From the NCBI GenBank assembly GCA_905199445.1, contig CAJKGK010000001.1:91059-155058 (forward strand): 64,000 nucleotides of DNA. Direction: 5' to 3'. Within the stretch, counting starts at the first letter, position 1. Every line of letters starts with the position of its first letter. This document shows, one piece after another, positions 8,954 through 39,849 of this stretch. The translations under genes and the position numbers were made by a program. The stretch is from an uncultured Lachnospiraceae bacterium. GTDB taxonomy: Bacteria; Bacillota; Clostridia; Lachnospirales; Lachnospiraceae. The notes below the pieces were generated by a model that saw only the letters and a program-made list of their open reading frames with translations, did no database searches and was not told the DNA's origin.

Positions 8954-9835
8954 TCATGCATCATATCTTTTAATAAAGGCAAAGCCCAGGGGATAAGGCC
9001 CTGTGTGCGTGGCTACCGTTGCACCGATCTGGCGAACCGGCACTGCCTTTGTCAGCCAGAATGTATCTTTAACCTGATTGGACAGCGCCATAGCCGCATC
9101 CATATCCAGTCCTTTGCCTACGCAAAACTCGTAATCATTGGGATTTTCTCCGGCTTTTTCAAAATAATCTCTGGCTATATCCAAAAGTTTCTTTAAGGCC
9201 TTTTTCTGATTTCTGGCAACACCGGCTGAAAAAATCTCGCCTTCCTTCATCACAATCAAAGGTTTAATTCCCAGGGCCGAACCGGCTATAAAGGCCATGC
9301 GTCCAATCCGTCCGCCCTTTTTCAGATATTCCAGATTACCCACGGTAAAGCAAATACGCCCTGTCGGCTGTATCCGATGCAATTCCTTGACTGCTTCCTT
9401 ATAACTTAAACCGTTAGCCTTCATCCGGGCTGCTTCCAGAACATACAGTCCCTCTTCTACTGTACACAGTCCGCTTTCGATGACTTTAATATGGGCATGG
9501 GGATATGTTTCAAGCAAAATATCTCTGGCCGTTTTAGCCGCCTGGTGAGATCCGCTAAGTTTTCCGGACAGACAGATACAGATAATGCTTTTACCGGCTT
9601 CCACAACCGGTGTAAAAGCTTCCATATAATCCTGAACCGAAGGGAGGGATGTCTTTGGATACGCCCCCTCATCAATCATTTTCTTATAATAGGCCTCTGT
9701 ATCAATATCTATTTTTTCTTTCATGTAGTTTTCTTCATCAAAAGACACATAAAAATGTACCTGATGGATCCCTTTCGCTTTCAGCAAATCTTCCGGAAGG
9801 TCACAGGCACTGTCTGCAAAAATTTCAAATGACAT
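8954..9835 (-). CDS. DegV family fatty-acid-binding protein
   Basis: 293 aa DegV/EDD fold sequence. AGGAGG RBS 6 nt upstream of the ATG. Confidence 0.85.
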   Translation of the reverse strand: MSFEIFADSACDLPEDLLKAKGIHQVHFYVSFDEENYMKEKIDIDTEAYYKKMIDEGAYPKTSLPSVQDYMEAFTPVVEAGKSIICICLSGKLSGSHQAAKTARDILLETYPHAHIKVIESGLCTVEEGLYVLEAARMKANGLSYKEAVKELHRIQPTGRICFTVGNLEYLKKGGRIGRMAFIAGSALGIKPLIVMKEGEIFSAGVARNQKKALKKLLDIARDYFEKAGENPNDYEFCVGKGLDMDAAMALSNQVKDTFWLTKAVPVRQIGATVATHTGPYPLGFAFIKRYDA

Positions 9836-9958
9836 CTTATTCCTCCTGAATTCAGTCGTTAGACATAGTTTTCAATACTACATTAATATTTTTTATTATA
9901 GCACACATTTCAGAAGAATCCTAGAGTATGTTTGAAAATTATCTAAAAAAATCACCAC

Positions 9959-10010
9959 AAAAAAAGGCCAGCCCATCCTTGAATCTCCGATGTGCTGGCC
10001 TTTATGCGGA
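9959..10010 (-). terminator. intrinsic terminator after the GH78 gene
   Basis: GGCCAGC...GCTGGCC stem (9966-9972 / 10003-10009), followed on the minus strand by T8. Confidence 0.6.
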
Positions 10011-10064
10011 ACTTAAACGCCCTTTTTACCCTTTTATATCCTTCATTTTTACATCGTGTATTTT

Positions 10065-12818
10065 TTACAGCTCTGCCTGGATCTGACTGATGCCATCAAT
10101 CACCAAATCCACACGCTCCGGTCTTACACCTATAAAGGCCATACCCTTTAATTCTTCCACGGTCTGCGCCATATTTTCAATGTCACCGGACATCACCATG
10201 CCATAGGCCTGAGGCACATATGTCTTTAAAATGTCCATGGCTTTTTCATTTCCGGCCAGCTCAAACAGGAAGGAATCCTTTGAAAACGGCTTTAATAAAT
10301 CTTTTGCAGGCTTATAGGTAATGTCATAGCTTCCGGCTTCCATATTTAAAGGTTCACCGTCATAATAAGGCAGACAGGCTGTGGCTGTACAGTTAAACGG
10401 TACTTCAAAATGCATGGTCACACTGCCGTCACCATTGATTTTCCAGTTAGACACATATCGGCCGCTGACAGAATCATAACTGCAGTTCATGTAACCCATT
10501 TTAATATTTAACTGAGGTTTAAAACAAACACTCTTAAAAGCCGTTGAGGAAGCACAGATGCCGGCCACATATTTATACATATATTCCAGAACAGAACCAT
10601 AGGAATAATGATTCAGGGAATTCATACCTGTACCGCTGATGCTGCCGTCATCCAAAACAGAATTCCAACGTTCCCAAATGGTTGTCGCCCCCAGGTTCAC
10701 ACAGTGAAGCCAGCTTGGGAAGTCTTCATTGAGCAGAAAATGCCATGCAGCATCATGAAGTCCGTTTTCAGCCAGCACGGTACACATCATCGTGGCACCG
10801 ACAAAGCCGCCTCTGATTCTGTAGCAGTCCCGTTTAAACCGGTTTTTAAGGCCTTCTATAATTCTGTTTTTATCTGTAAAAATACCAAACTTTAACGCTA
10901 CAAGATAGGCCGTCTGGGTATCAATGGCCAGGCGTCCGGTCTTTGTAAAATATTCGTCTAAAATAGCCTGACGAATTTTGGCTGCCAGTTGGGCATACTT
11001 TTCTTCATCTTCTTTATTTCCAATAATTCCTGCAGCCCTGCTGACAATACCTGCAGATGCATAATAATAGCAGGATGCAATATAATAATCATCGGTTCCG
11101 CCCTTCACACTCTGGTCTGTGGCACCGTCCAATGCCAGCCAGTCTCCAAAATGAAAGCCGTAATCAAACAGATAATGATTGCCGTTGGCTTCATCACCTC
11201 TGCGGATATAGTCCACCCAATCTTTCATCAACGGGTAATAAGTTTCAATGACTTCTGCGTCCCCGAAATAATCATACAGTACATTAGGAATAAACGTCGC
11301 TGCATCGCCCCATACACAGCTGCCGCCATCATTCATGCCGCAAAGCGGGGCAACATGAGGCGCTGCACCGCCCAGCTGAAGCTGTGCAATTCTTAAATCA
11401 TGAAGATATTTATCATAAAAAGCTCTTGTATCCATATTATAGCTGGCTGTCGGAGAAAAGACATTGGCATCTCCTGTCCATCCCAGACGTTCATCTCTTT
11501 GCGGACAGTCTGTCGGCACATCCAGGAAATTGGAACGCTGGCCCCACAGACAGTTGGAAATCAGCTGGTTAATCTTTGTATGTCCTGTTTCCATAAATCC
11601 GGTACGTTTCAAATCTGAATGAATGGCCAGTCCGGTAAAATCATGGACATTGAGGTCACCTTTCCATCCGGTCACACGGACATAGCGGCCGCCGTAAAAT
11701 GTAAAATGGGGACGCACCGTCTCAGGATTTCCGTCGGATACATAGGTAAACTGTGGTTTTGCAGAACGGTAATTGTCATTATAATAATTCCCCTGCTGAA
11801 GAATTTCTCCATATTCCAGCACAACCTTTGTTCCTTTAGGCAGTCTGGATTCAAACTGAACAAATCCGGTAAAGTTCTGTCCAAAATCCAATACCGTTTC
11901 TCCGGCCGGTGTATGAATCATCTCTTTGACAGAAAGTTTTTCACAGGCACGCACCGGCATACTGAATCTTGGCACCAGCTTACTTGTATCAGCCCCCAAA
12001 ACTTCAACTGACTTTTCAGGATTTTCTCTGCCTTCCCAAAGCAGCCTGTCATAAGTTTCTCCGTCATAAATGCCGCTGTCAGCCACATCAAAGCCTTTAT
12101 ACATCCAGGTCTTGTCGGTTGCAGTTACAGCGTGTGTACCGTCTGCATAATCCACATGAATTTCAGCAATTACCTTAAAACGGTCGCCATACAGTCCCTT
12201 GCCGCCGCCCAGGCCAAAACGGCCTTTGTACCAGCCATTGCCCAGAATAAACGCTGCTTTATTATCTGCCTTAAGCATAGATGTAATATCATAGGTCTGA
12301 TACTGAAGATCGTAATTATAATCATTATAAAACGGCGCCAGATATTCATCGCCTACTTTTTCTCCATTAATATAAGCCTCATAAACCCCCAGACCGCATA
12401 CATACAGCCGGGCGGACACAACTTCCCGATCCGTCTCAAAATTTTTATAAACAACCGGGTGATACTGATCTTCCTGCGCAGGTCCGACCCATACGCCAGT
12501 CCATGGCTCATTCATTTTTCCGGTTTCAAAGGTCGTTTCCCCGCTGGCTGTTTCACCGTTATCTCCGGTCACGGTCACACGGACATAGTACAGCGTTCTG
12601 GGTAATAATTCCATATTCAGGATTTCGCATATACTGTTTAAGTTTCCCTCTTTTTCATAGACTAAGTTTTTAAAATCCTCTGTCGTTGAAACCTTTACAC
12701 AGGCCTTTTCCTGATATTTCCCGGCTGTATCGCATACCTTCCAGGACAGCTTGATTTTTCTGTAACCATAGCCACGTGGATGTTCCATGCCGCAAATCAT
12801 TACCTGAGTAACTTTCAT
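10065..12818 (-). CDS. alpha-L-rhamnosidase, glycoside hydrolase family 78
   Basis: Large bacterial rhamnosidase architecture (N-terminal beta domains plus six-hairpin catalytic domain). Start set at MKVTQ (12818) after an AGGAGG RBS; the ORF caller's 23-codon extension is rejected. Confidence 0.8.
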   Translation of the reverse strand: MKVTQVMICGMEHPRGYGYRKIKLSWKVCDTAGKYQEKACVKVSTTEDFKNLVYEKEGNLNSICEILNMELLPRTLYYVRVTVTGDNGETASGETTFETGKMNEPWTGVWVGPAQEDQYHPVVYKNFETDREVVSARLYVCGLGVYEAYINGEKVGDEYLAPFYNDYNYDLQYQTYDITSMLKADNKAAFILGNGWYKGRFGLGGGKGLYGDRFKVIAEIHVDYADGTHAVTATDKTWMYKGFDVADSGIYDGETYDRLLWEGRENPEKSVEVLGADTSKLVPRFSMPVRACEKLSVKEMIHTPAGETVLDFGQNFTGFVQFESRLPKGTKVVLEYGEILQQGNYYNDNYRSAKPQFTYVSDGNPETVRPHFTFYGGRYVRVTGWKGDLNVHDFTGLAIHSDLKRTGFMETGHTKINQLISNCLWGQRSNFLDVPTDCPQRDERLGWTGDANVFSPTASYNMDTRAFYDKYLHDLRIAQLQLGGAAPHVAPLCGMNDGGSCVWGDAATFIPNVLYDYFGDAEVIETYYPLMKDWVDYIRRGDEANGNHYLFDYGFHFGDWLALDGATDQSVKGGTDDYYIASCYYYASAGIVSRAAGIIGNKEDEEKYAQLAAKIRQAILDEYFTKTGRLAIDTQTAYLVALKFGIFTDKNRIIEGLKNRFKRDCYRIRGGFVGATMMCTVLAENGLHDAAWHFLLNEDFPSWLHCVNLGATTIWERWNSVLDDGSISGTGMNSLNHYSYGSVLEYMYKYVAGICASSTAFKSVCFKPQLNIKMGYMNCSYDSVSGRYVSNWKINGDGSVTMHFEVPFNCTATACLPYYDGEPLNMEAGSYDITYKPAKDLLKPFSKDSFLFELAGNEKAMDILKTYVPQAYGMVMSGDIENMAQTVEELKGMAFIGVRPERVDLVIDGISQIQAEL

Positions 12819-12934
12819 AATATAAACCTCCTGCCACTTTTTATTTACAGAATAAATTTTCCTGTTATAATTACAAAAAAGACACATTATTTTTTACCGG
12901 CAGTATTTCCCTTCCGGCCCAAGGAGCAAAATCT

Positions 12935-14047
12935 ATGACACATGAAGATATCCTGACCTGGCTGTACACCCTCTCCCCCATTGAGGCAGCCCTGAAAGAT
13001 TACTATTTACACTATCACCGTCCGCCGCAGCCTTCCATGTTTCACCAAATCAGCTGCACCCAAATGCCAAAGTTTGACAAAGCCTTTGACAATATTGACA
13101 CCATCCCGGCCATTACAGCCGCACTGGACGGCCCCCCAGGAACATTAAAGCTGGAAATGGATGACACATGGATCCAAAAAGATGAGAATATCTCGATCTG
13201 CCGCCATCCCCGGTATTCACCGGTAAATATCCACACCCATACATTTATCGAGATTTCCGTGGTATACCATGGTCAGTGTACCCATCATTTTTATGAAAAT
13301 CTCCATGATTTGACCGATGGGGAACAACTTGATTTAAAAACCGGCGATATATGTATTATTCCGCCAAACACCTGCCACAGCATCAGTGTTTTCGATGACA
13401 GTATTATCATCAATCTTTTAATTCGGACAAAGCTGATGAAAGAGACCCTGTCCAGAATTTTATCCAGCAATCACCTGCTTTTTGATTTTTTTGTCCTCAC
13501 CCTTTACAACAAAGACACCTCGGATTTTATGCTGTTTTCCACGGATGCGGATCAACGGATTTTAAATCTTCTTGTGGATATGATGCTGGAAGCCTGTGAG
13601 CGGCGTCCTTACTATCAACAGGCTTCTGATTTAATGCTTGGCTTAATGTTTACCTACCTGCAGCGGGATTTTTCGGACCATATCCGCTTTTCCCGAAATG
13701 CAGCCACCGGAATCGGCCATATCCCGCCGATTCTTCAGTACATGCATCAGCATTACAACCAAAATGTGGACGAAATTGCCGGACATTTCCATTTGAATAC
13801 AGCTTACCTAAGCCGCCTGTTCAAAAAGCATACCCACCATACAGCCATTGAAACCCTGAAAAAAATCCGCATGGAGGCAGCAAAAGACTTCCTTCTCAAT
13901 TCCCATATGCCGGTTCAGGATATCAGCCAGACTGTAGGCTACAGCGACATCCCATTTTTTATCAGTACCTTTAAAAAATACTATGGCGCCACACCTCTCC
14001 AGTACCGCAAAAATGCCCGGTGTCGTGTACCGTCAGACACCCAATAA
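12935..14047 (+). CDS. AraC family transcriptional regulator (cupin sensor + HTH_AraC)
   Basis: C-terminal AraC HTH signature (...YLSRLFKK...GYSDIPFFISTFKKYYGATPLQYR). Divergent from the GH78 gene. Confidence 0.85.
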   Translation: MTHEDILTWLYTLSPIEAALKDYYLHYHRPPQPSMFHQISCTQMPKFDKAFDNIDTIPAITAALDGPPGTLKLEMDDTWIQKDENISICRHPRYSPVNIHTHTFIEISVVYHGQCTHHFYENLHDLTDGEQLDLKTGDICIIPPNTCHSISVFDDSIIINLLIRTKLMKETLSRILSSNHLLFDFFVLTLYNKDTSDFMLFSTDADQRILNLLVDMMLEACERRPYYQQASDLMLGLMFTYLQRDFSDHIRFSRNAATGIGHIPPILQYMHQHYNQNVDEIAGHFHLNTAYLSRLFKKHTHHTAIETLKKIRMEAAKDFLLNSHMPVQDISQTVGYSDIPFFISTFKKYYGATPLQYRKNARCRVPSDTQ

Positions 14048-14059
14048 TCAACAAAATTT

Positions 14060-14458: not shown

Positions 14459-16009
14459 ATGAAAAAGAAACTCATCGCAGTCGGCCTGGCAACAACTATG
14501 GCACTTTCTTTAGCCGCATGCGGCGGCTCTGGAGATAACGCTGCACCATCTGACAGCGGCTCATCATCAACCGGTACCCAAAACAATGATTCCAGTGCAG
14601 CAGCTTCCGGCGAAGTTACAAAACTGGTCATGACCTTTCCTACCTGGACAGGCGCTCCAATCGATACTCTGAAAATTCAGGATGCCATGAATGCGATTAC
14701 CAGAGATAAGTTAGGTATTGAAATCGAACTTCAGATTACCGACTACGCCTCCTATAATCAGAGCATGACTCTGGCTTTATCCGGCGGTGAACAGATTGAT
14801 ATCGCCACATGTACCGGTTTCCCTTATGGCAATGCTATAGCCCAGGATTATCTTCTGGATCTGGAAGCCGATGATCTGCTTACGACTTACGGTTCAGGCA
14901 TTATTGAAGCTGTTGGTCAGGAAAATATCGATGCCTGCCGCGTGGGCGGAGTTTTATACGGATTGCCCAACAATCGTGATATCGCCCAGGGCCGTGGCTG
15001 TGCAGCGGTTGCTACAGAATATCTGGACGGCATCGGCTATGAATTTGACCACGAGGCCGAGATCGTAAAAATAACACTGGATGAGTTAAATGATATTTAT
15101 GCTCAGCTTCATGAAAAATATCCGGATCTGGAAGTCTACAGACCAACCACAGGTTCTATGAATCAGTTCTCCAATGTGGACTCCCTCGGCGGTAATGTTT
15201 TCGGTGTTCTCCTTGATTATGGAAAAGAACTAAAAGTTGAGAATCTTTTTACCAGCGATTATTATAAAGAATATTGCGAAAGAATGTACGACTATAATCA
15301 AAAAGGATATATCAGTCAGGATGCAGCTACAGATACAACAGCTGTAGGCGAACTGGTAAAGGCCGGCACACTGATGAGCTATACAACCGGCGGAAAACCT
15401 GGTATTAAGGCTCAGGAAACCAGCCTTTGCGGCAGAGATATGACCATTTTCCAGACAATGGATGACTTTATCACCTCCTCTGCAATTGCTTCTTTCCCAT
15501 GGGTAATTCCTGTAACATCTGAAAATCCTCAGGCTGCTATGACTTATCTGAATGAACTTTATACCAATGCAGATCTGGCCAACATTTTAGCCTGGGGCAT
15601 CGAAGGTACCCATTATGTGATTGGTGATGACGGGCTGGCCACATACCCTGACGGTGTAGATGCCTCCAATTCCGGCTGGAATCATTCCATGGGCTGGATG
15701 CTTCCCAATCAGTTCCTCTCTCATGTATGGGAAGGCAACGATCCTCAGCTTTGGGATAAAATGAAAGCGTTCAACAGTAATGCCATGGTTTCAGCAGCCA
15801 GCGGATTTACTTTCGAAACCGCAAATGTTGCCAATGAAATTACAGCCGTTCAAAACGCTTATAATGAATTCCAGACAAGTGTGGAATATGGCTTTGTAGA
15901 TCCTGCCACAGGTATTCAGGAAATGAATGACAAACTCATGACAGCTGGGCTTGATAAGATTATCGCAGAAAAACAGCGTCAGCTGGACGAATGGGCTGCA
16001 AATAAATAA
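14459..16009 (+). CDS. ABC transporter extracellular solute-binding lipoprotein (LplA-like, family 1)
   Basis: Signal peptide with LAACGG lipobox. 516 aa SBP. GGGAGG RBS. Confidence 0.85.
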   Translation: MKKKLIAVGLATTMALSLAACGGSGDNAAPSDSGSSSTGTQNNDSSAAASGEVTKLVMTFPTWTGAPIDTLKIQDAMNAITRDKLGIEIELQITDYASYNQSMTLALSGGEQIDIATCTGFPYGNAIAQDYLLDLEADDLLTTYGSGIIEAVGQENIDACRVGGVLYGLPNNRDIAQGRGCAAVATEYLDGIGYEFDHEAEIVKITLDELNDIYAQLHEKYPDLEVYRPTTGSMNQFSNVDSLGGNVFGVLLDYGKELKVENLFTSDYYKEYCERMYDYNQKGYISQDAATDTTAVGELVKAGTLMSYTTGGKPGIKAQETSLCGRDMTIFQTMDDFITSSAIASFPWVIPVTSENPQAAMTYLNELYTNADLANILAWGIEGTHYVIGDDGLATYPDGVDASNSGWNHSMGWMLPNQFLSHVWEGNDPQLWDKMKAFNSNAMVSAASGFTFETANVANEITAVQNAYNEFQTSVEYGFVDPATGIQEMNDKLMTAGLDKIIAEKQRQLDEWAANK

Positions 16010-16042
16010 AATCATTCATTCACCTAAAATGACACATTCACC

Positions 16043-16091
16043 GGGGCTGCCAGTTCAGCAGTTATTGTAAAAATATCCGCTGTGACAGCCC
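16043..16091 (+). promoter_or_regulatory. intra-operon stem-loop between SBP and permease genes
   Basis: GGGGCTG...CAGCCCC 7-bp stem with a ~35-nt loop, followed by a weak U tract. Typical partial terminator giving SBP excess. Confidence 0.35.
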
Positions 16092-16125
16092 CTTAAAATA
16101 TGATTCCGAAAGGAGGCCATGGCTT

Positions 16126-17091: not shown

Positions 17092-17101
17092 GAGGTGCAC
17101 A

Positions 17102-18001: not shown

Positions 18002-18043
18002 TATGCGCAAGAAAATCTCGCAGAACAGATAACGGAAGACATA

Positions 18044-18096
18044 GTAAAAGGAGCGAAAGCAAAAAAATCAAAATTTTTGCTTTCGCTCCTTTTTTA
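18044..18096. terminator. bidirectional intrinsic terminator between convergent permease and response-regulator genes
   Basis: Perfect 12-13 bp stem GGAGCGAAAGCA/TGCTTTCGCTCC (18049-18061 / 18078-18090), A-run upstream and T6 downstream. Confidence 0.65.
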
Positions 18097-19692: not shown

Positions 19693-19732
19693 GTCCCCCC
19701 CCCTATTTTCTTAAATTAACGATCATTCCAAA

Positions 19733-21457: not shown

Positions 21458-21477
21458 ATGATTTCCCCTACCAAATC

Positions 21478-22485: not shown

Positions 22486-22640
22486 AAAGCGCCTGCCTCC
22501 TTCATACTGGGATATATGAAAGCTGCCGCATAAAGCGGTCAACAGAATAAGTACCACTGTAGACGCCTGACGCGGCAGCACCGTTTTATCTTTTTAAAGT
22601 TTATCATACTTGTATGGTAATGGCAAAATAAATCTTAAAT

Positions 22641-24266: not shown

Positions 24267-24373
24267 GAAAAAACCTCCTCCTGACAGGGTCTTTTAACCC
24301 TAACCTTATATCTGAAGTATATCAAATATTAGGTTTAAATGTCAATATTTTTAGTTTATTTTAAGTTATTTAT

Positions 24374-24402
24374 ATTGACGTTAGGCTAATAAAAATGTAT
24401 AC
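24374..24402 (+). promoter_or_regulatory. sigma-A-like promoter of the alpha/beta-hydrolase gene
   Basis: TTGACG (24374-24379), 17 nt, TATACT (24397-24402). The -35 overlaps an inverted repeat TGTCAATAT/ATATTGACG. Confidence 0.4.
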
Positions 24403-24474
24403 TATCATTGAAATGATCCATTCACAGTAACTGTAAATTTTCAATTATATATCATTTAATCAGGGGGTATTACA

Positions 24475-25964: not shown

Positions 25965-26040
25965 AAAAAGAACGCCCTCCTAAGTCACAAGCCTTTATCA
26001 TTTGGCTTGTCTGCTTAGAAGGGCGTTCTTCACTTTTTTG
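25965..26040. terminator. bidirectional terminator between convergent hydrolase and ATPase genes
   Basis: Perfect 11-bp stem AAGAACGCCCT (25969-25979) / AGGGCGTTCTT (26020-26030), A-run before and T6 after. Confidence 0.6.
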
Positions 26041-26046
26041 TACTTC

Positions 26047-29000
26047 CTATTCTAAACCACTTAAATATGCCTTTAATGCATCAACATCCGGTGATGTATA
26101 TGGCTTAATTCTCAGTTTTTCCCGCACACCATCTGTAAAATATACAGTGTTGTCTCTTAACCCTGAAATGGAAGGTTCGTCAAGCAAAAATTGTGCATCC
26201 CCCTGAGAAAGGGAGAAGACGATCCGTTCCGGGAAGTTTTTGATCACATTATTTCCATAGGAACACATGGAGTCTTTGACCGTCTGATATTCCAGAGCAG
26301 ACACAACAAAGCAAATGCCATACATGGATCCACTTTCCATCAGTTTAATCAGCTTATCCCCCACGGGCATGGTATCTTTATGCGTTTTCGGGCCAGAAAG
26401 AATATGATCAAAGTTAAACGCAGCCATAGGGTCAGAAAAATCCCCGTTTTCCTGTTCCGGCTCATCATCCAGATAATCGCTGCGCTCCACCGGATCACCA
26501 TTAAACATCATTTCCACAATATCCAAAAACTGAAGGTTTTTGAAAATCACAAAAATCTGCTCTTTTTTATTCTTTTTCTTTCTAAGTTGGAACTCATCAT
26601 ACACATCATCGATCATGCGGATGATACTTCCCCGATCTTCTGCCAGCGTCAATCGTCCGCTCCAGTCTGACAGAAGATGATAAAACGGTCTTGAGGTTTC
26701 GTCATCAACCATTAGATCGCCATCGGCACAGTATACCAAAGCATTACGGTTTAAAAGCGCACTGATCATATAATTATCAATGATCCGGCCTGCCATCTTC
26801 ACATCAGTGCCGCATACAAGTAAGTTATGCTTCCGCTTTTTATCAATAACGATTTTATAAGGCGGTGCAACCTTAATCGGTACACCCAGATGAATACATG
26901 CCGGGAATTCATCGGTCATTCCAATCCCCTGTACACGGAAATAATCCAGCAATTTTTCGGTTCGTTTACCTTCAAAAACCTGAAGTCGGGCCGGATAGTC
27001 TTTAAACTGATCACTGATCATCTTGAGATATTCATGCTGCGTCTCATCATCTAAATATGCGACTCTGAATCCCATCGCAGGCTTTTCCGTATAATCCGGA
27101 TTCATCACCGCGGTTCCCACAGGTCCCTTCATCATTGTCTGAATCTTTCCGCAGTCTTCATTTCCAAACAAATACCGGATATCTGATTCCCCACATTTTA
27201 AGCCTACACGAATAAGCATCTGCTCCGCAATGCCGGAAATCAAAGTCATATTGGATATACTTCTCATGGACTGGGTAGCCATCAGCAGATGAATTCCAAA
27301 AGCACGGCCTTCCGTCACAATACGCTTAGCCAGCTCGGAACAATGCTCCGCAACCTTTCTGTTGGCAGCATCATTAAACAGAACCTGGAATTCATCAATA
27401 ATAACCAGGATTCTAGGCATAGGCTTGCCGGTTACACTTACGTAATCTTTAACGGCCGTTACCCCGCCGCCTTCTTCTTTAAACAATTCCGCTCTGTGTT
27501 CCATTTCCTGAACAAGACTTTCCAGAATACTTTCACCAAATTCCTGCATGGCATCCAGAGCCAGCAGACGGATATGGGGAAGTTTTTCAGACTCATAAAT
27601 TTTAAATTCTGTTCCGCTTTTAAAATCCATAAGATAAAGCTGAAGCTGATCCGGGCTGTAATTAAGCATACTGCTCATGATCACTGTATGTAACAGCGTG
27701 GATTTACCGGAACCGGTAGCACCCGCAATCAGACCATGATGAGAAGACCCTTCCCCCATCACCATGTTTACAGCCGCATCCCGGTCGCCGATACCTACCG
27801 GAATGGAAAGCTTGCCAAAGGACTGCGCCTTAAACAGTTCTTTTGGAAGAATATCTGAAAATGAAATGCCCTGACGTTTGATTTTGCCTAACTTTTTCAC
27901 ATATGCTGACATAAACTGTTCCATTTCCAGGTCAGATGGAAGCCCTGTAATACTTACCGGGTAATCATACGGCATTAAACAATACCGGCCATTTTTATAT
28001 GCGATTTGTTCACAGCCTTTTTTAATTTCTGAAAGATGCTGTTCTGTATGATCATAGATCGAATAAGAAATTTCCGGGTTATGGCAAATCAGCACATAAA
28101 CGCCGCACCGTTTTCCGTTCTGTACGATATTTTGCAAAAGTTCCAGATTCCTTTTATCCATACCACTTGGAAAATCATATAAAACCAAAAGTGTGGCTGC
28201 TTCACTGCGATTTGGCGTATTTTTATTATATTCCCAGAAATCCCCATACCGGTTTCCCAGCTTATCCTGAATAAATTCATCGATCTGCTGGTTCAGTTTT
28301 TTCAGCCGCTCATACATATCTTCCTGGGCCGTATATATTTTTTCGTCAAACGCATCCGGACAGCGCTTTTTAAAATCCAGAAATGGTATAATGCTGTTTC
28401 CCCGCTGCCTGCCGTCAAAAACACAAATATTCACCTTGCCCACAGGCAGTGATGATAAAAATGTCCATATCACATGATGCGTAAAATCCAGGATTTCCCG
28501 GCTGTATTCAGAGGGACATTCCAGGAAAAAATCAAGCCCCTGTCTAAGATCCATCATCATGGGAAGCTGTATCTGCCAAAGGCCGTTCTGCTGACTGGGC
28601 TCTGTGCCAAAAAATTCCAGCATCTGATGATAAGCGCTGCTTGAGGAAAATAGTGAAGCCGGATAATCAACCATGCCAATGGCCACTTCCTGAGGAAAAG
28701 CATTGCCTGCGCCTAAAGCCTGAGTTTTTTGACTCCACATATGTTTCAACTGATAAAGCTGGGCCACTGCAGCATCGACCTCAGCGGCCTGTTTTGAAAA
28801 AATAATTTTATACAGCAATGGGGAAAATACGCCCCCCTGATCTGACGAATCTTGTGAATATAAACTATATTTTTCTAGAAAATGCTTTGCTTTTTCATCG
28901 TCCATACTGCAATGAAGATCATACCAACAGCCGTCCATCAAAAACTCCGATGACCGCTGGATAATTATTTTTGACAAACGCCAGATTTCATCCATATCTT

Positions 29001-30444
29001 TTCCCGACATTGTCTGATTGTTTTCCTGTGGATTTTCTCCTAAAGTCATGCACATGCGGACGCCGCATTTTGCCCCGTTTTTCATTATATTGAGCACATC
29101 AGCCATGACATCCCCAACCATCGCTGCAGAAAAATCAAATAATAACAAAAGTTCTGTTTGAACCTTATAATCTAAGTGATCGCTGGCATAATCATAAATT
29201 GTATGGTAGCTTCCGCCCAGCTTTTCCTGAGTCATCCGGGTCACCCGATCACTGATTTCTCTGATTTTTTCCCGTATTTCTCCCCCTTCGGTATAGATTT
29301 TATTACCAAACAGTTGAGGGACCTGTTGTCTCAGACTATAAAATCCAGAAATACTTCCGCCTTTTCTTACGGGGTCAACCACTGTATAAACCAGCTGCCC
29401 TACAGGTACTGATGAAAGCATACTCAACATCAAACGATTCACAAAACGCCGTGGGATATCCGGATTTGTACCATCCCCTTGAATCAGCCATGAAGATGTG
29501 CCATACTGGCTCATGCCGCAAGGCAAAAACAGCAGATTGCCGTCCGTAACCAGATCTTTAAACTTGTTTTTAATCAAATGTTTGATATCCGCATTATTGA
29601 TCCAATTTAAATCATAAGCGACATAGCCTTGATTGAACAAACCGTTCACACATTGGGATGTCTGATTCAGCTTATATTCTTCCTTAAAAAAGTCAAACAG
29701 CTGATTTTCCATTAAAAATATCAGGTCATCACTAAAAAGCTGATCCAAATCCTTAGCCATTTTTCTATTCGTATTATTTTGCCTCTCAGAAGCTTCCATA
29801 TACCCCTGTGAAATCTGGTCGCTCAGCTGTTTTTTTATTTTTTTGTTTTTAGCTTCAATGGCCGACTGATACTGTTTTATGCTGTTTGTAAGAATTTGAT
29901 TTCTTTCCTTTCTTAAGGTCTCATTAAAAAAGCGGAGCGTTTCTCTAAGATCAATCAGCTGGTTTGTATCACCTACATTTCCGGCACTAAACAAACCGGA
30001 TAAACCACCTTTCGGTTGATAGGCCTCCCCGTATGAGGAAAAATATCGTATACTGCAAAACTGCGCTTTAAGCTTATCTAAAGCCCGGGAACAGTCATCC
30101 ACTGTTTTCAGCTCAAAAAATTCTGGCTGAATCTGACGGGGCGCTCTCCCTGTTTTGACCATATACGCAACTTTGTCTGTAAGCTTTCTTCTATAAAATA
30201 CAGAGGCCAGCTCCCGATCTATGGAATTAGCTTCTTTATATATAGACTCCAGCCTTTGTGTCATTTTTTCAGCAATTTCTGATGGATTGATCTCCGAATT
30301 CTGAGCAGAGAATTTACGCTGGGCATCCTGCTCAATACGTCTCCTGCGCTGTTCATTTTGTTCCATCAATGCTACCGCATTATGAAGAATCGTATCTAAA
30401 TTCTTAACCAACTCCGGTACATTTTCCCAATTAAATACTGCCAT
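26047..30444 (-). CDS. soluble multi-domain FtsK/SpoIIIE-family ATPase (EssC/EccC-like, four P-loop-like domains, only domain 3 intact)
   Basis: Walker A LIAGATGSGKST at 27698-27733 and Walker B ILVIIDEFQ around 27386-27420. Three further domains align to the same fold but lack GKS/T. No hydrophobic TM segment or FHA-like N-terminus; the first 300 aa are helical. Start at the second ATG (30444), 7 nt after AAGGAAGG. Confidence 0.8.
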   Translation of the reverse strand: MAVFNWENVPELVKNLDTILHNAVALMEQNEQRRRRIEQDAQRKFSAQNSEINPSEIAEKMTQRLESIYKEANSIDRELASVFYRRKLTDKVAYMVKTGRAPRQIQPEFFELKTVDDCSRALDKLKAQFCSIRYFSSYGEAYQPKGGLSGLFSAGNVGDTNQLIDLRETLRFFNETLRKERNQILTNSIKQYQSAIEAKNKKIKKQLSDQISQGYMEASERQNNTNRKMAKDLDQLFSDDLIFLMENQLFDFFKEEYKLNQTSQCVNGLFNQGYVAYDLNWINNADIKHLIKNKFKDLVTDGNLLFLPCGMSQYGTSSWLIQGDGTNPDIPRRFVNRLMLSMLSSVPVGQLVYTVVDPVRKGGSISGFYSLRQQVPQLFGNKIYTEGGEIREKIREISDRVTRMTQEKLGGSYHTIYDYASDHLDYKVQTELLLLFDFSAAMVGDVMADVLNIMKNGAKCGVRMCMTLGENPQENNQTMSGKDMDEIWRLSKIIIQRSSEFLMDGCWYDLHCSMDDEKAKHFLEKYSLYSQDSSDQGGVFSPLLYKIIFSKQAAEVDAAVAQLYQLKHMWSQKTQALGAGNAFPQEVAIGMVDYPASLFSSSSAYHQMLEFFGTEPSQQNGLWQIQLPMMMDLRQGLDFFLECPSEYSREILDFTHHVIWTFLSSLPVGKVNICVFDGRQRGNSIIPFLDFKKRCPDAFDEKIYTAQEDMYERLKKLNQQIDEFIQDKLGNRYGDFWEYNKNTPNRSEAATLLVLYDFPSGMDKRNLELLQNIVQNGKRCGVYVLICHNPEISYSIYDHTEQHLSEIKKGCEQIAYKNGRYCLMPYDYPVSITGLPSDLEMEQFMSAYVKKLGKIKRQGISFSDILPKELFKAQSFGKLSIPVGIGDRDAAVNMVMGEGSSHHGLIAGATGSGKSTLLHTVIMSSMLNYSPDQLQLYLMDFKSGTEFKIYESEKLPHIRLLALDAMQEFGESILESLVQEMEHRAELFKEEGGGVTAVKDYVSVTGKPMPRILVIIDEFQVLFNDAANRKVAEHCSELAKRIVTEGRAFGIHLLMATQSMRSISNMTLISGIAEQMLIRVGLKCGESDIRYLFGNEDCGKIQTMMKGPVGTAVMNPDYTEKPAMGFRVAYLDDETQHEYLKMISDQFKDYPARLQVFEGKRTEKLLDYFRVQGIGMTDEFPACIHLGVPIKVAPPYKIVIDKKRKHNLLVCGTDVKMAGRIIDNYMISALLNRNALVYCADGDLMVDDETSRPFYHLLSDWSGRLTLAEDRGSIIRMIDDVYDEFQLRKKKNKKEQIFVIFKNLQFLDIVEMMFNGDPVERSDYLDDEPEQENGDFSDPMAAFNFDHILSGPKTHKDTMPVGDKLIKLMESGSMYGICFVVSALEYQTVKDSMCSYGNNVIKNFPERIVFSLSQGDAQFLLDEPSISGLRDNTVYFTDGVREKLRIKPYTSPDVDALKAYLSGLE

Positions 30445-30457
30445 AATCATGCCTTCC

Positions 30458-30727
30458 TTAAAATCTTATACTTCCGTACTCATCTAACGCCTGAGCCAGT
30501 CTTTCCAGCTTTGGCGCAGCTGTGCGAAGGGCCGCCGTCGGCTGAGCAGTCAGCTGGGCAATCCGACGCATAAGCATCATAAACTGCTGGGACTGCTCGT
30601 CATCCCATTCCGGGGATTTTTTCAGGACAGACTGAATACCGCTGCTGATCCATTCCAGATCGCTGGCGGTTTTTAACAGATCCTGTTCCATTTCACGTAT
30701 AACTTCCGGTGAAGCCTTTACTGACAT
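30458..30727 (-). CDS. small helical WXG100-like protein, paralog 3 (W-D-D-E motif)
   Basis: 89 aa with central ...SPEWDDEQSQQF.... AGGAGG RBS. Its stop is 7 nt from the ATPase RBS. Confidence 0.6.
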   Translation of the reverse strand: MSVKASPEVIREMEQDLLKTASDLEWISSGIQSVLKKSPEWDDEQSQQFMMLMRRIAQLTAQPTAALRTAAPKLERLAQALDEYGSIRF

Positions 30728-30737
30728 TTTCTTCCTC

Positions 30738-31019
30738 CTACAAACCTGTTGACTCGTATCTTCTGATAATCCTCAATAATTCTTCAAGTTTAAGCAAACA
30801 ATCTTTAAGTTCTTTTTCCGGAACTTCCATAGCCTGACAGCAATCCCCGACAATTCGTCCCAATTCCATATATTTTTGGTCCTGCCAGCCCCCCAAGCCT
30901 GCCATCTGATAACCATGGTTTAATTTTTTTATAGCCATTTCAAGTTCCTGAATCGAAGTCTGACAACATCTGATTCCACCTTCAACAGCTCCGCTTTCCA
31001 CAGATACACTTTTTGCCAT
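30738..31019 (-). CDS. small helical WXG100-like protein, paralog 2 (W-Q-D-Q motif)
   Basis: 93 aa with central ...GGWQDQKYMEL.... AGGAGG RBS. Confidence 0.6.
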   Translation of the reverse strand: MAKSVSVESGAVEGGIRCCQTSIQELEMAIKKLNHGYQMAGLGGWQDQKYMELGRIVGDCCQAMEVPEKELKDCLLKLEELLRIIRRYESTGL

Positions 31020-31036
31020 ATGAATCCTCCTGTCAT

Positions 31037-31795
31037 TTAAATCGGTGTATTCAGATATTTCTCAATACTCTGAATACATTTCTGTACTGCACTGATATTT
31101 CTCTCTGCCACATGATTGGATGAATATTCCAATGCTTTGGCAGCACTGACATAGGCCTGCAGTTCCCTTTCCATATTCCAGTATGCCTGCTTTAATCTGT
31201 CTCTTTTACTTTCTCTGCACATTAACCGGCTGCGTTCCGAATCCAGTTTTTCTCTGCAGGCCCGTTGTCTGTTGGACAGGTTCTGCCGCTGTGTATAAAG
31301 CATTTGCCGCCGGTTATTTTCTGCACTTTTCTGAGCAGTCAATGCCTGGCACTCACTCTCCATCCGGCTGATCTGCATTTCCAGAGTTCTGATCTGGTCA
31401 CTATACCGATTGACACTGGCCTGATCATTACTGGCCTGAGCCGATTGCATTCCGGATCGGGCAGAAGCCACATCCCCATTGAGATAGCCGATTTCTTTTC
31501 TTATTCCGTCAATTCTTCCCGTAAGGAAGTCAATCTTACTCAAACACTGCTGATACTCGTCCTCCACTCTGGAAAGCTCAGCCGTAATTGTCTCCAGTTG
31601 CCGAGAAAGTTCCCTTTCCATCATTAAGCTTTCATTCACAGCCGCCTCTGCCTGATTCACACTTTTCTGTCCCGAATAAAGGGTTTCATTAACTCTTTTC
31701 TCTATTCTGAACGCAATTCCTGAAATATCAGCGGAAAATCCATTTAACGCTTTTTTTACATCCTGTAGCGCTTCTATTGATACTGAAGCCTGCAT
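31037..31795 (-). CDS. coiled-coil protein with N-terminal LxG-like motif (possible LXG-domain-like substrate/adaptor)
   Basis: 252 aa, heptad-rich, Q/S/R-rich. Residues 12-21 VKKALNGFSAD. No recognisable toxin domain. GGAGG RBS. Confidence 0.6.
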   Translation of the reverse strand: MQASVSIEALQDVKKALNGFSADISGIAFRIEKRVNETLYSGQKSVNQAEAAVNESLMMERELSRQLETITAELSRVEDEYQQCLSKIDFLTGRIDGIRKEIGYLNGDVASARSGMQSAQASNDQASVNRYSDQIRTLEMQISRMESECQALTAQKSAENNRRQMLYTQRQNLSNRQRACREKLDSERSRLMCRESKRDRLKQAYWNMERELQAYVSAAKALEYSSNHVAERNISAVQKCIQSIEKYLNTPI

Positions 31796-31828
31796 TATCT
31801 AACGCCTCCACTTACTTAAGATTTTCTC

Positions 31829-32047
31829 CTAATAGTTTTCGTTTGCGATTCTTTCAAATTCCTCTACAGCCCTCTGACTTCTTCTGCCTGTTTCCATCAC
31901 AAATCTGGATTTATTTCCCAGCTGGGCCACAGAATCAGACAGTTGTCTGTAATTTTCATCCTGCCATAAAACAGATGCCTTTTTTATGGCATTTCCCAGT
32001 TTTGTCACAGACAGTTCAAATGCCATAAGCTCTCCATAGTTTCCCAT
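31829..32047 (-). CDS. small helical WXG100-like protein, paralog 1 (W-Q-D-E motif)
   Basis: 72 aa from the ATG at 32047 (GGGGA 5 nt upstream), or 78 aa from a GTG at 32065 that lies 3 nt after the polC stop. Central ...VLWQDENYRQL.... Confidence 0.55.
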   Translation of the reverse strand: MGNYGELMAFELSVTKLGNAIKKASVLWQDENYRQLSDSVAQLGNKSRFVMETGRRSQRAVEEFERIANENY

Positions 32048-32068
32048 AAATTTCCCCGCTTTCACTTT

Positions 32069-39837: not shown

Positions 39838-39849
39838 TTATCCCTCCAG

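What the first reader, a model, noticed from the sequence alone, without database searches (positions are those of the whole stretch)
8954..32065. ~23 kb accessory insertion splitting the conserved polC-rimP junction
In Bacillus and Clostridia the order frr-uppS-cdsA-dxr-rseP-(ispG/proS)-polC-rimP-nusA-ylxR-ylxQ-infB-rbfA-truB-ribF is conserved, with rimP immediately after polC. Here polC ends at 32069 and rimP starts at 8698. Between them lie DegV, a complete glycan-utilisation locus and the T7-like operon. No integrase, transposase or tRNA marks the borders, so the insertion mechanism is unclear. By eye the 26-32 kb segment looks AT-richer than polC and ispG.
Basis: partly seen in the sequence, partly recalled or inferred. 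Interest (0 to 1): 0.55.

Follow-up and report, generated by a model that had tools for sequence, protein, structure and literature searches.

The report
Variable gene slot between polC and rimP
The 23 kb between the DNA polymerase gene polC and the rimP-nusA-infB operon is real accessory DNA, but it is a patchwork of four gene modules built up in a spot that differs in every related Lachnospiraceae genome, not one insertion into a fixed junction; its most unusual part is a stripped-down, membrane-less type VII secretion-like operon.

Summary
Observation confirmed. polC ends at 32069 and rimP starts at 8698. The 23,370 bases between them hold 16 genes and no integrase, transposase, tRNA or border repeats.

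Interpretation only partly supported.
- The adjacency premise fails here: across 160 related loci, rimP never directly follows polC.
- The nearest relatives keep the two linked, 1.1-4 kb apart, with different fillers: an LtaS-like gene, a DagK-like kinase, or DegV.
- In 40 of 45 species loci, rimP is not within 10 kb of polC.
- GC, tetranucleotide and codon usage match the flanks.
- Four independent conspecific contigs are collinear from 16045 to polC at 99.8% identity.

The interval is a mosaic of four modules:
- DegV, whose 70% ortholog sits alone, inverted, in a relative's slot.
- GH78 rhamnosidase plus an AraC regulator.
- An 11.5-kb sugar-uptake cassette, found collinear beside glycogen genes in another genome.
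- A five-gene T7SS-like operon that starts 21 nt after the polC stop.

The operon encodes a soluble four-domain EccC-like ATPase with one intact P-loop, three WXG100-like hairpin proteins and a coiled-coil protein. Fuller relatives sit elsewhere, often on mobilisable elements, with a membrane protein, E1/E2/JAB genes and toxin-like genes.

Best reading: an integrase-less variable slot filled stepwise.

The parts
32069..36553 (-). polC (PolC-type DNA polymerase III alpha). It is the upstream anchor of the slot. Stop codon TAA at 32069-32071.
   Evidence: Pfam domains. Homology to relatives ends at 32078-32079.
31829..32047 (-). 72-aa helical protein, first gene of the T7SS-like operon. It has a central W-Q-D motif. 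Its ATG lies 21 nt after the polC stop. The mechanical ORF extends to a GTG at 32065.
   Evidence: Sequence. Conspecific gene calls give 72 aa. Homologs lead related operons. No promoter-like or convincing terminator-like site lies between it and polC.
31037..31795 (-). 252-aa coiled-coil protein of the operon.
   Evidence: Only weak coiled-coil matches (SMC, JetC arms). Homologs of 240-255 aa hold the same position in related operons.
30738..31019 (-). 93-aa WXG100-like hairpin protein with motif GGWQDQKY.
   Evidence: 44-70% identical homologs in every related operon. The same domain forms the N-terminus of toxin-like proteins downstream of the ATPase in relatives.
30458..30727 (-). 89-aa WXG100-like hairpin protein with the turn sequence SPEWDD.
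   Evidence: Pfam WXG100 E=0.0037, below threshold. AlphaFold model pLDDT 83.7, helix 7-37, turn, helix 44-87. The 13 best PDB fold matches are all Firmicute WXG100 proteins; S. aureus EsxA gives TM 0.80-0.84, rmsd 1.7.
26047..30450 (-). 1467-aa soluble EccC/EssC-like ATPase. It has an N-terminal helical region and four alpha/beta domains. Only the third domain has an intact Walker A (GATGSGKS, residue 910) and Walker B (ILVIIDEF, residue 1014). There is no TM helix and no FHA domain.
   Evidence: Model pLDDT 83.8. Best fold match is the T. curvata EccC cytoplasmic domain 4NH0, E=1e-27, then EssC and EccC ATPases 2-3. The PDB sequence profile agrees. About 25 full-length cluster representatives at 32-47% identity among 1.84 billion representatives.
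25965..26030 (.). Strong hairpin followed by a U-run. It lies between the convergent ATPase and Abhydrolase_10 genes and ends the polC-to-cassette transcription unit.
   Evidence: dG -39.9 kcal/mol, z -7.4 against shuffles. Sequence.
14459..25941 (.). 11.5-kb sugar-uptake and sensing cassette. Genes: DUF3502 SBP 14459-16009 (+); permeases 16126-17091 and 17102-18001 (+); AraC-type response regulator 18094-19692 (-); histidine kinase 19733-21457 (-); LacI 21478-22581 (-); DUF5060/apiosidase-like hydrolase 22641-24266 (-); Abhydrolase_10 24475-25941 (+).
   Evidence: Pfam. The same genes occur in the same order and orientation at 70-75% nucleotide identity in L085, beside glycogen genes. A partial version is in L088.
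18046..18093 (.). Perfect 20-nt inverted repeat between the convergent permease and response-regulator genes. It is probably a bidirectional terminator.
   Evidence: Inverted repeat I4.
10065..14047 (.). GH78 alpha-L-rhamnosidase (10065-12887, -) and a divergently transcribed AraC-family regulator (12935-14047, +).
   Evidence: Pfam. This pair is absent from the L085 and L088 versions of the neighbouring cassette.
8954..9835 (-). DegV-family (FakB-like) fatty-acid-binding protein. It is probably the oldest resident of the slot.
   Evidence: Pfam DegV 3.7e-69; NCBIfam. A 70% identical homolog is the only gene between polC and rimP in L103, L106 and L107, on the opposite strand.
8812..8893 (-). 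rimP operon promoter (TTGCAT, 17 nt, TGgTATAAT) and an 11-bp leader hairpin (8837-8812). This marks the downstream edge of the slot.
   Evidence: Sequence. Hairpin.
8225..8698 (-). rimP, the downstream anchor, followed by nusA (7047-8204) and infB.
   Evidence: Pfam. Homology to relatives resumes at 8688-8690.

Best explanation
The interval between the polC stop codon and the rimP promoter is a recurrent variable slot in this branch of the Lachnospiraceae. Two conserved essential operons flank it, and its content turns over between lineages. In this species the slot has grown to 16 genes by stepwise accumulation of at least four modules. It was not filled by one integrating element.

The modules:
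1. DegV, probably an older resident of the slot.
2. GH78 rhamnosidase plus an AraC regulator.
3. An 11.5-kb cassette with an ABC importer, a two-component system, LacI, an apiosidase-like hydrolase and an esterase-like hydrolase. It is probably for pectin-type (rhamnose- or apiose-bearing) oligosaccharides.
4. A five-gene T7SS-like operon joined to the 3' end of the polC transcription unit.

Shown:
- The anatomy of the interval.
- The variability of the slot among relatives.
- The presence of modules 3 and 4 in other genomic contexts.
- Native composition.
- Collinearity of modules 3 (from the permeases) and 4 with polC in four independent conspecific samples.

Inferred:
- Gene gain came by recombination with DNA from related Lachnospiraceae, using the conserved flanks or illegitimate joints, because no site-specific machinery is present.
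- The T7SS-like operon is read through from polC.
- The sugar substrate.

The T7SS-like operon most likely acts as an ATPase-driven handling machine for WXG100-like helical hairpin proteins. By analogy with EccC/EssC, the terminal ATPase domain would recognise the hairpin proteins. This copy lacks the Zn-ribbon membrane protein, the E1/E2/JAB genes and the toxin genes found in fuller relatives. It is therefore either a reduced cytoplasmic derivative or it depends on partners encoded elsewhere in the genome.
For: Anchors and break points:
- blastn homology of L001, L026, L044, L050 and L065 to the window ends at 32079-32460 (polC 3' end) and resumes at 8684-8690 (rimP).

Slot variability:
- Nearest relatives keep polC and rimP 1.1-4 kb apart with different fillers.
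  - LtaS-like gene: L001, L104, L105, L108, L109, L110, L115.
  - DagK/YegS-like kinase: L098, L102.
  - DegV, inverted: L103, L106, L107.
- 40 of 45 species loci have no rimP within 10 kb after polC.
- 17 of 23 rimP loci with a full 10 kb upstream have no polC within it.
- The first gene after polC falls into 53 clusters across 69 loci.

Mosaic structure:
- The cassette is collinear in L085 beside glgC/glgD, malQ and glgP.
- The T7SS-like operon lies after fucI in a Blautia sp..
- It lies next to toxin-antitoxin genes in L094, an integrase and a Rep gene in L092, an integrase in L177, a resolvase in L096 and L188, and a relaxase with NikA/MobC in L186.

No integration machinery.

Native composition:
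- GC 0.436 inside against 0.449-0.451 outside.
- Tetranucleotide correlation to the core 0.912 against 0.922.
- Codon bias is not different, p=0.15.

Species-level stability:
- L081-L084, from four samples, are 99.8% identical and collinear over 16045-39919.
- The ATPase shows 6-7 synonymous differences to 1 non-synonymous.

Operon fusion:
- A 21-nt gap follows the polC stop, with no promoter-like site and a strong terminator only after the ATPase.
- Filler genes in relatives also start 25-42 nt after polC.
Against: - No complete genome of this species, or of its closest relative (L097: NusA 90%, contig too short), was available. The order and direction of gains and losses is therefore not resolved on a tree.
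- The DegV-GH78-AraC-SBP part and its junction with rimP were not seen in any independent contig within the DNA I could read.
- Uniform composition is equally expected if the whole block were old and had been lost from relatives.
- DegV is inverted relative to L103, so its orthologous residency needs an extra inversion or an independent arrival.
- In loci without rimP within 10 kb, I cannot tell whether the two operons are unlinked or simply further apart.
- The recombination mechanism is inferred from the absence of other signs, not observed.
Confidence: 0.65

Rival explanations
1. One genomic island or integrative element of about 23 kb inserted between polC and rimP in a single event.
For: - The whole block is absent from the nearest relatives.
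- Relatives of one component, the T7SS-like operon, ride on mobilisable elements.
Against: - No integrase, transposase, relaxase, tRNA or flanking repeats.
- Composition is indistinguishable from the flanks.
- The modules occur separately in other genomes.
- DegV alone occupies the slot in a relative.
- The slot holds different single genes in different relatives, so it changes repeatedly.
Confidence: 0.1
2. The large block is ancestral to this clade, and relatives with 1-4 kb fillers are the result of deletions.
For: - Composition and codon usage are native.
- DegV is shared with L103.
- Divergence of the cassette in L085 (70-75% nucleotide identity) is similar to core-gene divergence from the nearest relatives (polC 72% to L001).
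Against: - The relatives' fillers (LtaS-like, DagK-like, EamA-like) are not subsets of the window's content, so they need gains anyway.
- No remnants of the window's modules were found in any of 160 related loci, apart from DegV and one distant 28% GH78 hit 8.5 kb downstream in L023.
- The T7SS-like operon and the cassette lie in unrelated contexts elsewhere.
Confidence: 0.18
3. Assembly chimera: unrelated contigs were joined at polC or rimP in a metagenome assembly.
For: The source is evidently metagenomic. The rimP-side junction was not independently seen.
Against: - Four contigs from four different samples and assemblers run collinear at 99.8% identity from polC or upstream, through the T7SS-like operon, as far as each contig reaches. 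Two of them reach the permeases.
- GC skew and strand bias are continuous across both borders.
Confidence: 0.03
4. The five-gene operon behind polC is an anti-phage or conflict system acting in the cytoplasm, not a secretion apparatus.
For: - None of the five proteins has a TM segment.
- Relatives sit beside toxin-antitoxin genes and mobile-element genes, and often carry E2(CBASS-like)/JAB/E1 genes.
- The P-loop domain matches the SspH and HerA models in PADLOC.
Against: - The PADLOC matches cover only the generic P-loop core.
- Most relatives do include a membrane protein and WXG-fused toxin-like proteins with small downstream genes. That is the pattern of T7SS-exported polymorphic toxins.
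- No experimental data exist.
Confidence: 0.25

Closest known systems
Integrase-less chromosomal hotspots of gene gain and loss, i.e. variable intervals between conserved core genes. This is general knowledge from pangenome studies such as Oliveira et al. 2017, recalled and not read here.
   Same: - The same pair of core flanks recurs across relatives.
- Content differs between lineages.
- The content is a mosaic of functional modules.
- There is no recombinase, tRNA or repeats.
- Composition is native.
   Different: - The slot sits inside a gene order that is textbook-conserved in Bacillus (polC-rimP-nusA-infB).
- Its first genes are fused to the transcription unit of the essential replicative polymerase.
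Type VIIb secretion system of Firmicutes (EssC/YukB ATPase, EsxA/YukE WXG100, EssA, EssB, EsaA, EsaB/YukD).
   Same: - Tandem FtsK-like P-loop domains with the EccC/EssC fold.
- Adjacent hairpin proteins of about 90 aa with the EsxA fold.
- In relatives, toxin-like proteins with an N-terminal WXG-like domain.
   Different: - The ATPase has no FHA domains and no TM helices.
- Only one domain has an intact Walker A and B.
- It scores far below the EssC and EccC family cut-offs: 97 against 778 bits and 127 against 509 bits.
- The turn motif is W-x-D, not W-x-G.
- No EssA, EssB, EsaA or YukD homolog is present.
- The relatives' membrane partner is an unrelated Zn-ribbon protein with 2-3 TM helices, and it is missing here.
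'Mobile versions of T7SS': solo WXG domains with a distinct YueA-like ATPase that has three HerA/FtsK domains, only the middle one active (Zhang et al. 2012, Biol Direct 7:18, PMC3482391, Table 1 footnote).
   Same: - A multi-domain FtsK-like ATPase with a single active domain next to solo WXG-like proteins.
- Relatives are on mobile elements.
   Different: [quoted passage not shown]
- Four domains are modelled here, not three.
- I could not test whether the two groups are the same family.
Bacillus subtilis-type pectin and rhamnogalacturonan clusters (yes/lpl genes) and Bacteroides RG-II loci with GH78 and GH140 enzymes. Recalled knowledge, not tested.
   Same: - An LplA-like DUF3502 binding protein with two permeases.
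- A YesM/YesN-like kinase and AraC-type response regulator.
- A GH78 rhamnosidase and a PF13204 apiosidase-like hydrolase.
- JGI names orthologs 'aldouronate transport system substrate-binding protein'.
   Different: - The substrate is untested.
- No lyases or GH28 or GH105 enzymes are in the locus.
- The ABC ATPase subunit is not encoded here.

Membership tests
Integrative mobile element or genomic island (ICE, IME, prophage, transposon) | Recombinase (integrase, transposase or resolvase) within or at the border | tested here: not met
   All 16 ORFs were scanned with Pfam and the T7SS-like ones also with NCBIfam. No recombinase domain was found. The largest gap is 411 nt.
Integrative mobile element or genomic island (ICE, IME, prophage, transposon) | Insertion at a tRNA/tmRNA gene or flanking att-type direct repeats | tested here: not met
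   No tRNA or tmRNA in 64 kb. Border repeats are no longer than in shuffles.
Integrative mobile element or genomic island (ICE, IME, prophage, transposon) | Composition deviating from the host | tested here: not met
   GC 0.436 against 0.45. Tetranucleotide r 0.912 against 0.922. Codon bias p=0.15.
Integrative mobile element or genomic island (ICE, IME, prophage, transposon) | Present or absent as one block among close relatives | tested here: inconclusive
   Absent from the nearest non-conspecific relatives. Four conspecific contigs carry the part they cover, 16045 to polC. No strain with an empty or partial slot was available.
Integrase-less variable slot (hotspot) between core genes | The same conserved flanking genes in relatives, with homology breaking at the gene ends | tested here: met
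   Homology breaks at the polC stop and the rimP start. polC and rimP are linked 1.1-4 kb apart in L001, L098, L102, L103, L104, L107, L110 and L115.
Integrase-less variable slot (hotspot) between core genes | Different gene content in the interval among related genomes | tested here: met
   LtaS-like, DagK-like (with or without EamA-like), DegV, or 16 genes. 53 clusters for the first gene in 69 loci.
Integrase-less variable slot (hotspot) between core genes | Modules with independent distributions | tested here: met
   The cassette is in L085 beside glycogen genes. The T7SS-like operon lies after fucI in Blautia and in mobile-element or toxin-antitoxin contexts.
Type VIIb secretion system | EssC/EccC-type ATPase with tandem FtsK-like domains | tested here: met
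   Foldseek best matches are 4NH0 EccC (E=1e-27), 4LYA and 5FV0 EssC. PDB profile search: EccC 9e-42 against FtsK 1e-16.
Type VIIb secretion system | ATPase anchored by two TM helices, with N-terminal FHA domains | tested here: not met
   No FHA hit. No hydrophobic segment qualifies: the one 19-residue window above the 1.6 threshold (1.63, at residue 434) is the degenerate Walker-B strand LLLLFDF. All ~25 full-length relatives also lack TM helices.
Type VIIb secretion system | Score above the curated EssC or EccC family cut-off | tested here: not met
   TIGR03928 97.5 bits against 778. TIGR03924 126.9 bits against 509.
Type VIIb secretion system | Membrane components EssA, EssB, EsaA and the ubiquitin-like EsaB/YukD in the locus | tested here: not met
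   None of the five proteins matches these families or has a TM segment. The rest of the genome could not be searched.
WXG100 family | About 100 aa forming a helix-turn-helix hairpin | tested here: met
   The 89-aa protein model has H7-37 and H44-87, pLDDT 83.7. TM 0.80-0.84 to S. aureus EsxA, and the 13 top fold hits are all WXG100 proteins, although the Foldseek E-values are not significant.
WXG100 family | W-x-G motif in the turn, and a score above the Pfam threshold | tested here: not met
   The turn motifs are W-D-D, W-Q-D and W-Q-D. PF06013 scores 17.9 bits against 27.3 for the 89-aa protein and gives no hit for the other two.
'Mobile T7SS version' of Zhang et al. 2012 | YueA-like ATPase with several FtsK/HerA domains, only one of them active, next to solo WXG proteins | tested here: met
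   One Walker A/B pair (residues 910 and 1014) among four modelled alpha/beta domains. Three solo hairpin proteins are adjacent.
'Mobile T7SS version' of Zhang et al. 2012 | Homology to the proteobacterial and bacteroidete examples meant by those authors | not tested
   The paper gives no accession in the passage read.
Gram-positive glycan utilisation locus | Dedicated importer, sensor or regulator, and glycoside hydrolases clustered together | tested here: met
   SBP with two permeases; kinase with response regulator, LacI and AraC; GH78, an apiosidase-like hydrolase and Abhydrolase_10. Orthologous clusters in L085 and L088.
Gram-positive glycan utilisation locus | Defined substrate | not testable with these tools
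   The pectic or rhamnose/apiose-oligosaccharide assignment is an inference from family names only.

The most novel reading that the evidence does not exclude
The five genes directly behind polC are a reduced member of an undescribed family of T7SS-like machines in gut Clostridia.

The family's core is:
- a soluble, four-domain EccC-like ATPase with one live P-loop
- three W-x-D hairpin proteins
- a coiled-coil protein

Fuller relatives add:
- a Zn-ribbon membrane protein
- a 56-65-aa protein ending in GKLA
- an E2/JAB/E1 ubiquitin-like conjugation set
- WXG-fused toxin-like proteins

These fuller versions travel on mobilisable elements. On this reading the family is a distinct secretion or conflict system that links ubiquitin-like conjugation to T7SS-type substrate handling. 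The window's copy has no membrane protein and no toxin, is intact, shows a synonymous excess hinting at purifying selection, and is probably read through from polC. It would then have been domesticated for a cytoplasmic role.
Probability: 0.3. Interest if true: 0.7.

Novelty: new member of a known kind. Interest (0 to 1): 0.38.

Why it matters
- **Synteny inference.** Gene order carried over from Bacillus (polC directly followed by rimP) does not hold in Lachnospiraceae. A break in it is therefore not evidence of an insertion event.
- **Niche-relevant genes without mobility genes.** The interval is a concrete case of sugar-uptake genes collecting next to essential operons with no recognisable mobility genes. 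This bears on how gut commensals diversify.
- **A lead on a new protein-handling family.** The T7SS-like operon points to a small, uncharacterised family. About 25 full-length cluster representatives (50% identity clusters) were found among 1.84 billion. Its fuller members combine T7SS-type parts with E1/E2/JAB genes. I found no paper in the searchable library with this combination.

Tried and rejected
- **Exact look-up of RimP:** nothing on record.
- **First exhaustive ATPase search:** Rerun with residues 1-1150.
- **Word-indexed homolog search of the ATPase:** 8 hits, only one of them full-length (the self cluster). It made the protein look almost unique. The exhaustive search corrected this to about 25 full-length representatives.
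- **PADLOC:** only generic P-loop matches to SspH, HerA and mad8, and coiled-coil noise to JetC and LmuB. Not taken as membership of a defence system.
- **Rfam at gathering thresholds over 6-38 kb:** no match.
- **Border direct and inverted repeats:** chance level.
- **A 14-nt direct repeat bracketing GH78-AraC (10031 and 14310):** one base longer than the best of 100 shuffles, with no extended similarity. Treated as probable chance.
- **Promoter and terminator scans:** chance level overall. Only individually strong sites were used, after folding.
- **Structure prediction with locus-derived homologs:** Redone with database homologs.
- **Literature searches for FtsK or WXG100 together with E1/E2/JAB:** only classical T7SS/YukD papers and Zhang et al. 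2012.
- **AT-richness of 26-32 kb as a sign of foreign origin:** rejected. GC3 of the ATPase is 0.42, inside the core-gene range of 0.37-0.53.


Full report
**What is there**

The window is a Lachnospiraceae chromosome segment. The best species-level match to the polC C-terminus is 79%, to a rumen MAG, L001. Nearly all genes are on the - strand, with continuous negative GC skew.

- polC occupies 32069-36553. Upstream of it lie ispG, rseP, dxr, cdsA, uppS and frr.
- rimP occupies 8225-8698. After it come nusA, an L7Ae-like gene, infB, rbfA, a DHH-family gene, truB and ribF.

The 23,370 bases between them hold 16 ORFs, all with clear or partial annotation.

**Borders and composition**

- No tRNA or tmRNA gene is present.
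- No ORF has a recombinase or transposase domain.
- No intergenic gap is long enough to hide one.
- Repeats at the two outer borders and at the inner module junctions are no longer than in shuffled sequence.
- One 14-nt repeat brackets GH78-AraC and barely exceeds the shuffles. It has no extended similarity.

Composition matches the flanks:

| Measure | Inside the interval | Flanks |
|---|---|---|
| GC | 0.436 | 0.449-0.451 |
| Tetranucleotide correlation to the core | 0.912 | 0.922 |
| Codon bias relative to core genes | not different, p=0.15 | |

The T7SS-like part has GC 0.425, within the spread of core genes. The most deviant genes for codon bias are mostly those on the opposite strand. 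So there is no compositional sign of recent foreign origin.

**Comparison anchored on polC**

I fetched 80 species-representative loci with up to 10 kb downstream of polC.
- None contains a homolog of any T7SS-like gene or of the sugar cassette. The only cross-hit to an interval gene downstream of polC is a distant 28% GH78 match in L023.
- Of 45 loci with a full 10 kb downstream, only 5 have rimP within it, at gaps of 1.4-8.3 kb.
- L001, the closest by polC, has a 2.1-kb gap holding an LtaS-like gene.
- rimP is never directly adjacent to polC.
- The first gene of at least 100 aa after polC falls into 53 clusters across 69 loci.
- blastn homology to the window stops at the polC stop codon and resumes at the rimP start codon.

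**Comparison anchored on rimP**

I fetched 80 metagenome loci with up to 10 kb upstream of rimP. The relatives most like the window (RimP 72-75%, NusA 84-85%) have polC 1.1-4 kb upstream, with different fillers:

| Filler between polC and rimP | Loci |
|---|---|
| DagK/YegS-like kinase | L098 |
| The same kinase plus an EamA-like permease and two small genes | L102 |
| LtaS-like gene | L104, L105, L108, L109, L110, L115 |
| DegV alone, 70% identical to the window's, on the opposite strand | L103, L106, L107 |

All 17 more distant loci with a full flank have no polC within 10 kb.

The interval is therefore a recurrent variable slot. The window's 23 kb is a lineage-specific expansion of it. The premise of a fixed polC-rimP adjacency holds for Bacillus (my own knowledge). 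It does not hold in this family.

**Stability within the species**

Four contigs from four samples (L081-L084) are collinear with the window from 16045 to 39919 at 99.8% identity. This rules out a chimera at the polC side and shows that this part of the arrangement recurs in independent samples. The DegV to SBP part and its junction with rimP were not independently covered.

**Module 1: the T7SS-like operon (26047-32047)**

*Transcription.* The 72-aa gene starts 21 nt after the polC stop. No promoter-like site lies in the last 900 nt of polC, and no convincing terminator follows it. A strong hairpin with a U-run follows the ATPase gene (dG -39.9, z -7.4). Co-transcription with polC is inferred from this.

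*The ATPase.*
- It is 1467 aa with no TM helix.
- It has one Walker A and one Walker B.
- It has a single Pfam FtsK_SpoIIIE hit.
- Its NCBIfam scores are far below the EccC and EssC cut-offs.
- An AlphaFold model of residues 301-1467 (pLDDT 83.8) shows four alpha/beta domains.
- The best fold matches are the EccC cytoplasmic domain 4NH0 (E=1e-27), then EssC and EccC ATPases 2-3, then FtsK.
- A PDB sequence-profile search agrees.

*The small proteins.*
- The 89-aa protein models as a helical hairpin.
- Its 13 best fold matches are all Firmicute WXG100 proteins, with TM up to 0.84. The E-values are not significant, as expected for a simple hairpin.
- All three small proteins carry W-x-D at the turn.

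*How rare the family is.* The word-indexed search found only the self cluster as a full-length match. The exhaustive search found about 25 full-length cluster representatives at 32-47% identity. It also found a related soluble class of about 1130 aa. TM-bearing EccC-like proteins ranked lower.

*Where relatives sit.*
- In an uncultured Blautia the 89-aa protein is 80% identical. The operon there lies between fucI and a radical-SAM gene.
- In L094 it lies next to HEPN/NTase, ParE and PIN genes.
- In L092, L096, L177, L178 and L186 it is longer. It adds a Zn-ribbon membrane protein with 2-3 TM helices, a 56-65-aa protein ending in GKLA, E2(CBASS-like), JAB and ThiF/E1 genes. All of these except L177 also have the coiled-coil protein, and all have a protein with a WXG-like N-domain after the ATPase.
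- That protein carries an ADP-ribosyltransferase toxin domain in L178 and a weak YwqH-like match in L186.
- These longer operons lie next to an integrase and a Rep gene (L092), an integrase (L177), a resolvase (L096, and the divergent L188), or a relaxase with NikA/MobC (L186).
- The two closest operons, L090 and the Blautia one, have the membrane-protein gene between the 89-aa gene and the ATPase gene. In the window these two genes are 7 nt apart, and the 64-kb window has no homolog of that protein.

The window therefore carries a reduced five-gene version. It is intact. Against conspecifics it shows 6-7 synonymous differences to 1 non-synonymous.

*Prior description.* The nearest I found is a footnote in Zhang et al. 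2012 (PMC3482391). It mentions solo WXG domains with a distinct YueA-like ATPase of three FtsK domains, only the middle one active, called 'mobile versions of T7SS'. It lists non-Firmicute phyla.

**Modules 2-4**

- **Module 2, 14459-25941.** A DUF3502 binding protein, two permeases, an AraC-type response regulator, a histidine kinase, LacI, a DUF5060/apiosidase-like hydrolase and Abhydrolase_10.
  - The same eight genes, in the same order and orientation, occur in L085. The binding protein there is 76% identical and the DNA 70-75%.
  - In L085 they are flanked by glgC/glgD, malQ, glgP and debranching genes.
  - A partial version is in a Candidatus Limivivens MAG.
- **Module 3, 10065-14047.** GH78 rhamnosidase plus a divergent AraC regulator. 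It is absent from those versions.
- **Module 4.** DegV, discussed above.

A pectin-type substrate (rhamnose or apiose oligosaccharides) is an inference from family names.

**How it most likely arose**

Three lines of evidence point the same way:
- No site-specific machinery is present.
- The slot turns over among relatives.
- Modules 2 and 4 have separate distributions.

The most likely history is stepwise gain in a permissive interval between two essential operons. Gain would be by recombination with DNA from related Lachnospiraceae, followed by spread of the arrangement within the species (confidence about 0.65). The recombination step is inferred.

Rivals:
- A single island: about 0.1.
- An ancestral block lost elsewhere: about 0.18.
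- An assembly chimera: about 0.03.

**Verdict**

The finding is real, and its core claim of accessory content without mobility marks holds. The 'insertion into a conserved junction' framing is wrong for this family. As a phenomenon it is an ordinary member of a known kind, an integrase-less variable region. The embedded T7SS-like operon is the part that deserves follow-up.

**Limits**

- No complete genomes were available.
- The rest of this genome could not be searched.
- All functional statements are computational.

Noticed in passing
L092 6893-10008, L096 6944-9951, L177 6895-9747, L178 6952-10008, L186 6150-9065: In longer relatives of the operon, a 56-65-aa protein ending in P-x-G-K-L-A sits just upstream of the ATPase gene. 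It is followed by E2 (CBASS-like), JAB and ThiF/E1 genes. This links a ubiquitin-like conjugation set to T7SS-type parts. The small protein could be the conjugated moiety. I found no paper in the held library that has FtsK together with E1-E2 and JAB.
   Followed up: partly
L090 1843-2574; L180 10285-11019; L178 4489-5343; L096 5896-6825; L092 5877-6722; L177 6169-6876; L186 5154-6074: A conserved protein with an N-terminal Zn-ribbon/B-box-like domain and 2-3 TM helices belongs to most related operons. The window has no copy, neither in the operon nor anywhere else in its 64 kb.
   Followed up: yes
L178 14372-15226; L092 14970-15977; L096 14368-15000; L177 15037-15969; L186 13734-14783: In relatives, the protein just downstream of the ATPase or its adjacent hairpin genes has an N-terminal domain like the window's 93-aa protein. 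Its C-terminal domain varies (ADP-ribosyltransferase toxin in L178). In most of these loci a small ORF follows. This is the architecture of polymorphic toxins with immunity genes. The window has none.
   Followed up: partly
window 8812-8893: The rimP-nusA-infB operon has a near-consensus extended -10 promoter (TTGCAT, 17 nt, TGgTATAAT). An 11-bp hairpin followed by a pyrimidine-rich stretch lies in its leader. It may be an attenuator of the kind reported for nusA autoregulation in Bacillus (my own recollection).
   Followed up: partly
window 10031-10044 and 14310-14323: A 14-nt direct repeat, CTTTTATATCCTTC, brackets the GH78-AraC pair. It is one base longer than the best of 100 shuffles and has no flanking similarity. 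It is probably chance.
   Followed up: yes
window 48117-55188: A second carbohydrate cluster lies outside the finding. It holds a GH36 (melibiase)-HAD fusion protein of 810 aa, a GH65 phosphorylase of 793 aa, and a 760-aa protein with a weak GDE_C match.
   Followed up: no
window 42896-44503: A 535-aa SASA-family carbohydrate esterase sits directly upstream of an amino-acid-kinase-family gene (probably pyrH) and frr. This is another non-core gene wedged into the conserved translation and replication gene string.
   Followed up: no
L081 1-1753 against window 39497-40021: One conspecific contig has a local duplication of about 420 bp in dxr (window 39497-39919). It gives an extra 135-aa DXP_reductoisom fragment that is absent from the window.
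   Followed up: no
L124 1701-2657 and 10001-10441: In one more distant relative, rseP lies 7 kb upstream of rimP. No ispG or polC hit lies between them. polC itself may have been relocated in some lineages.
   Followed up: no
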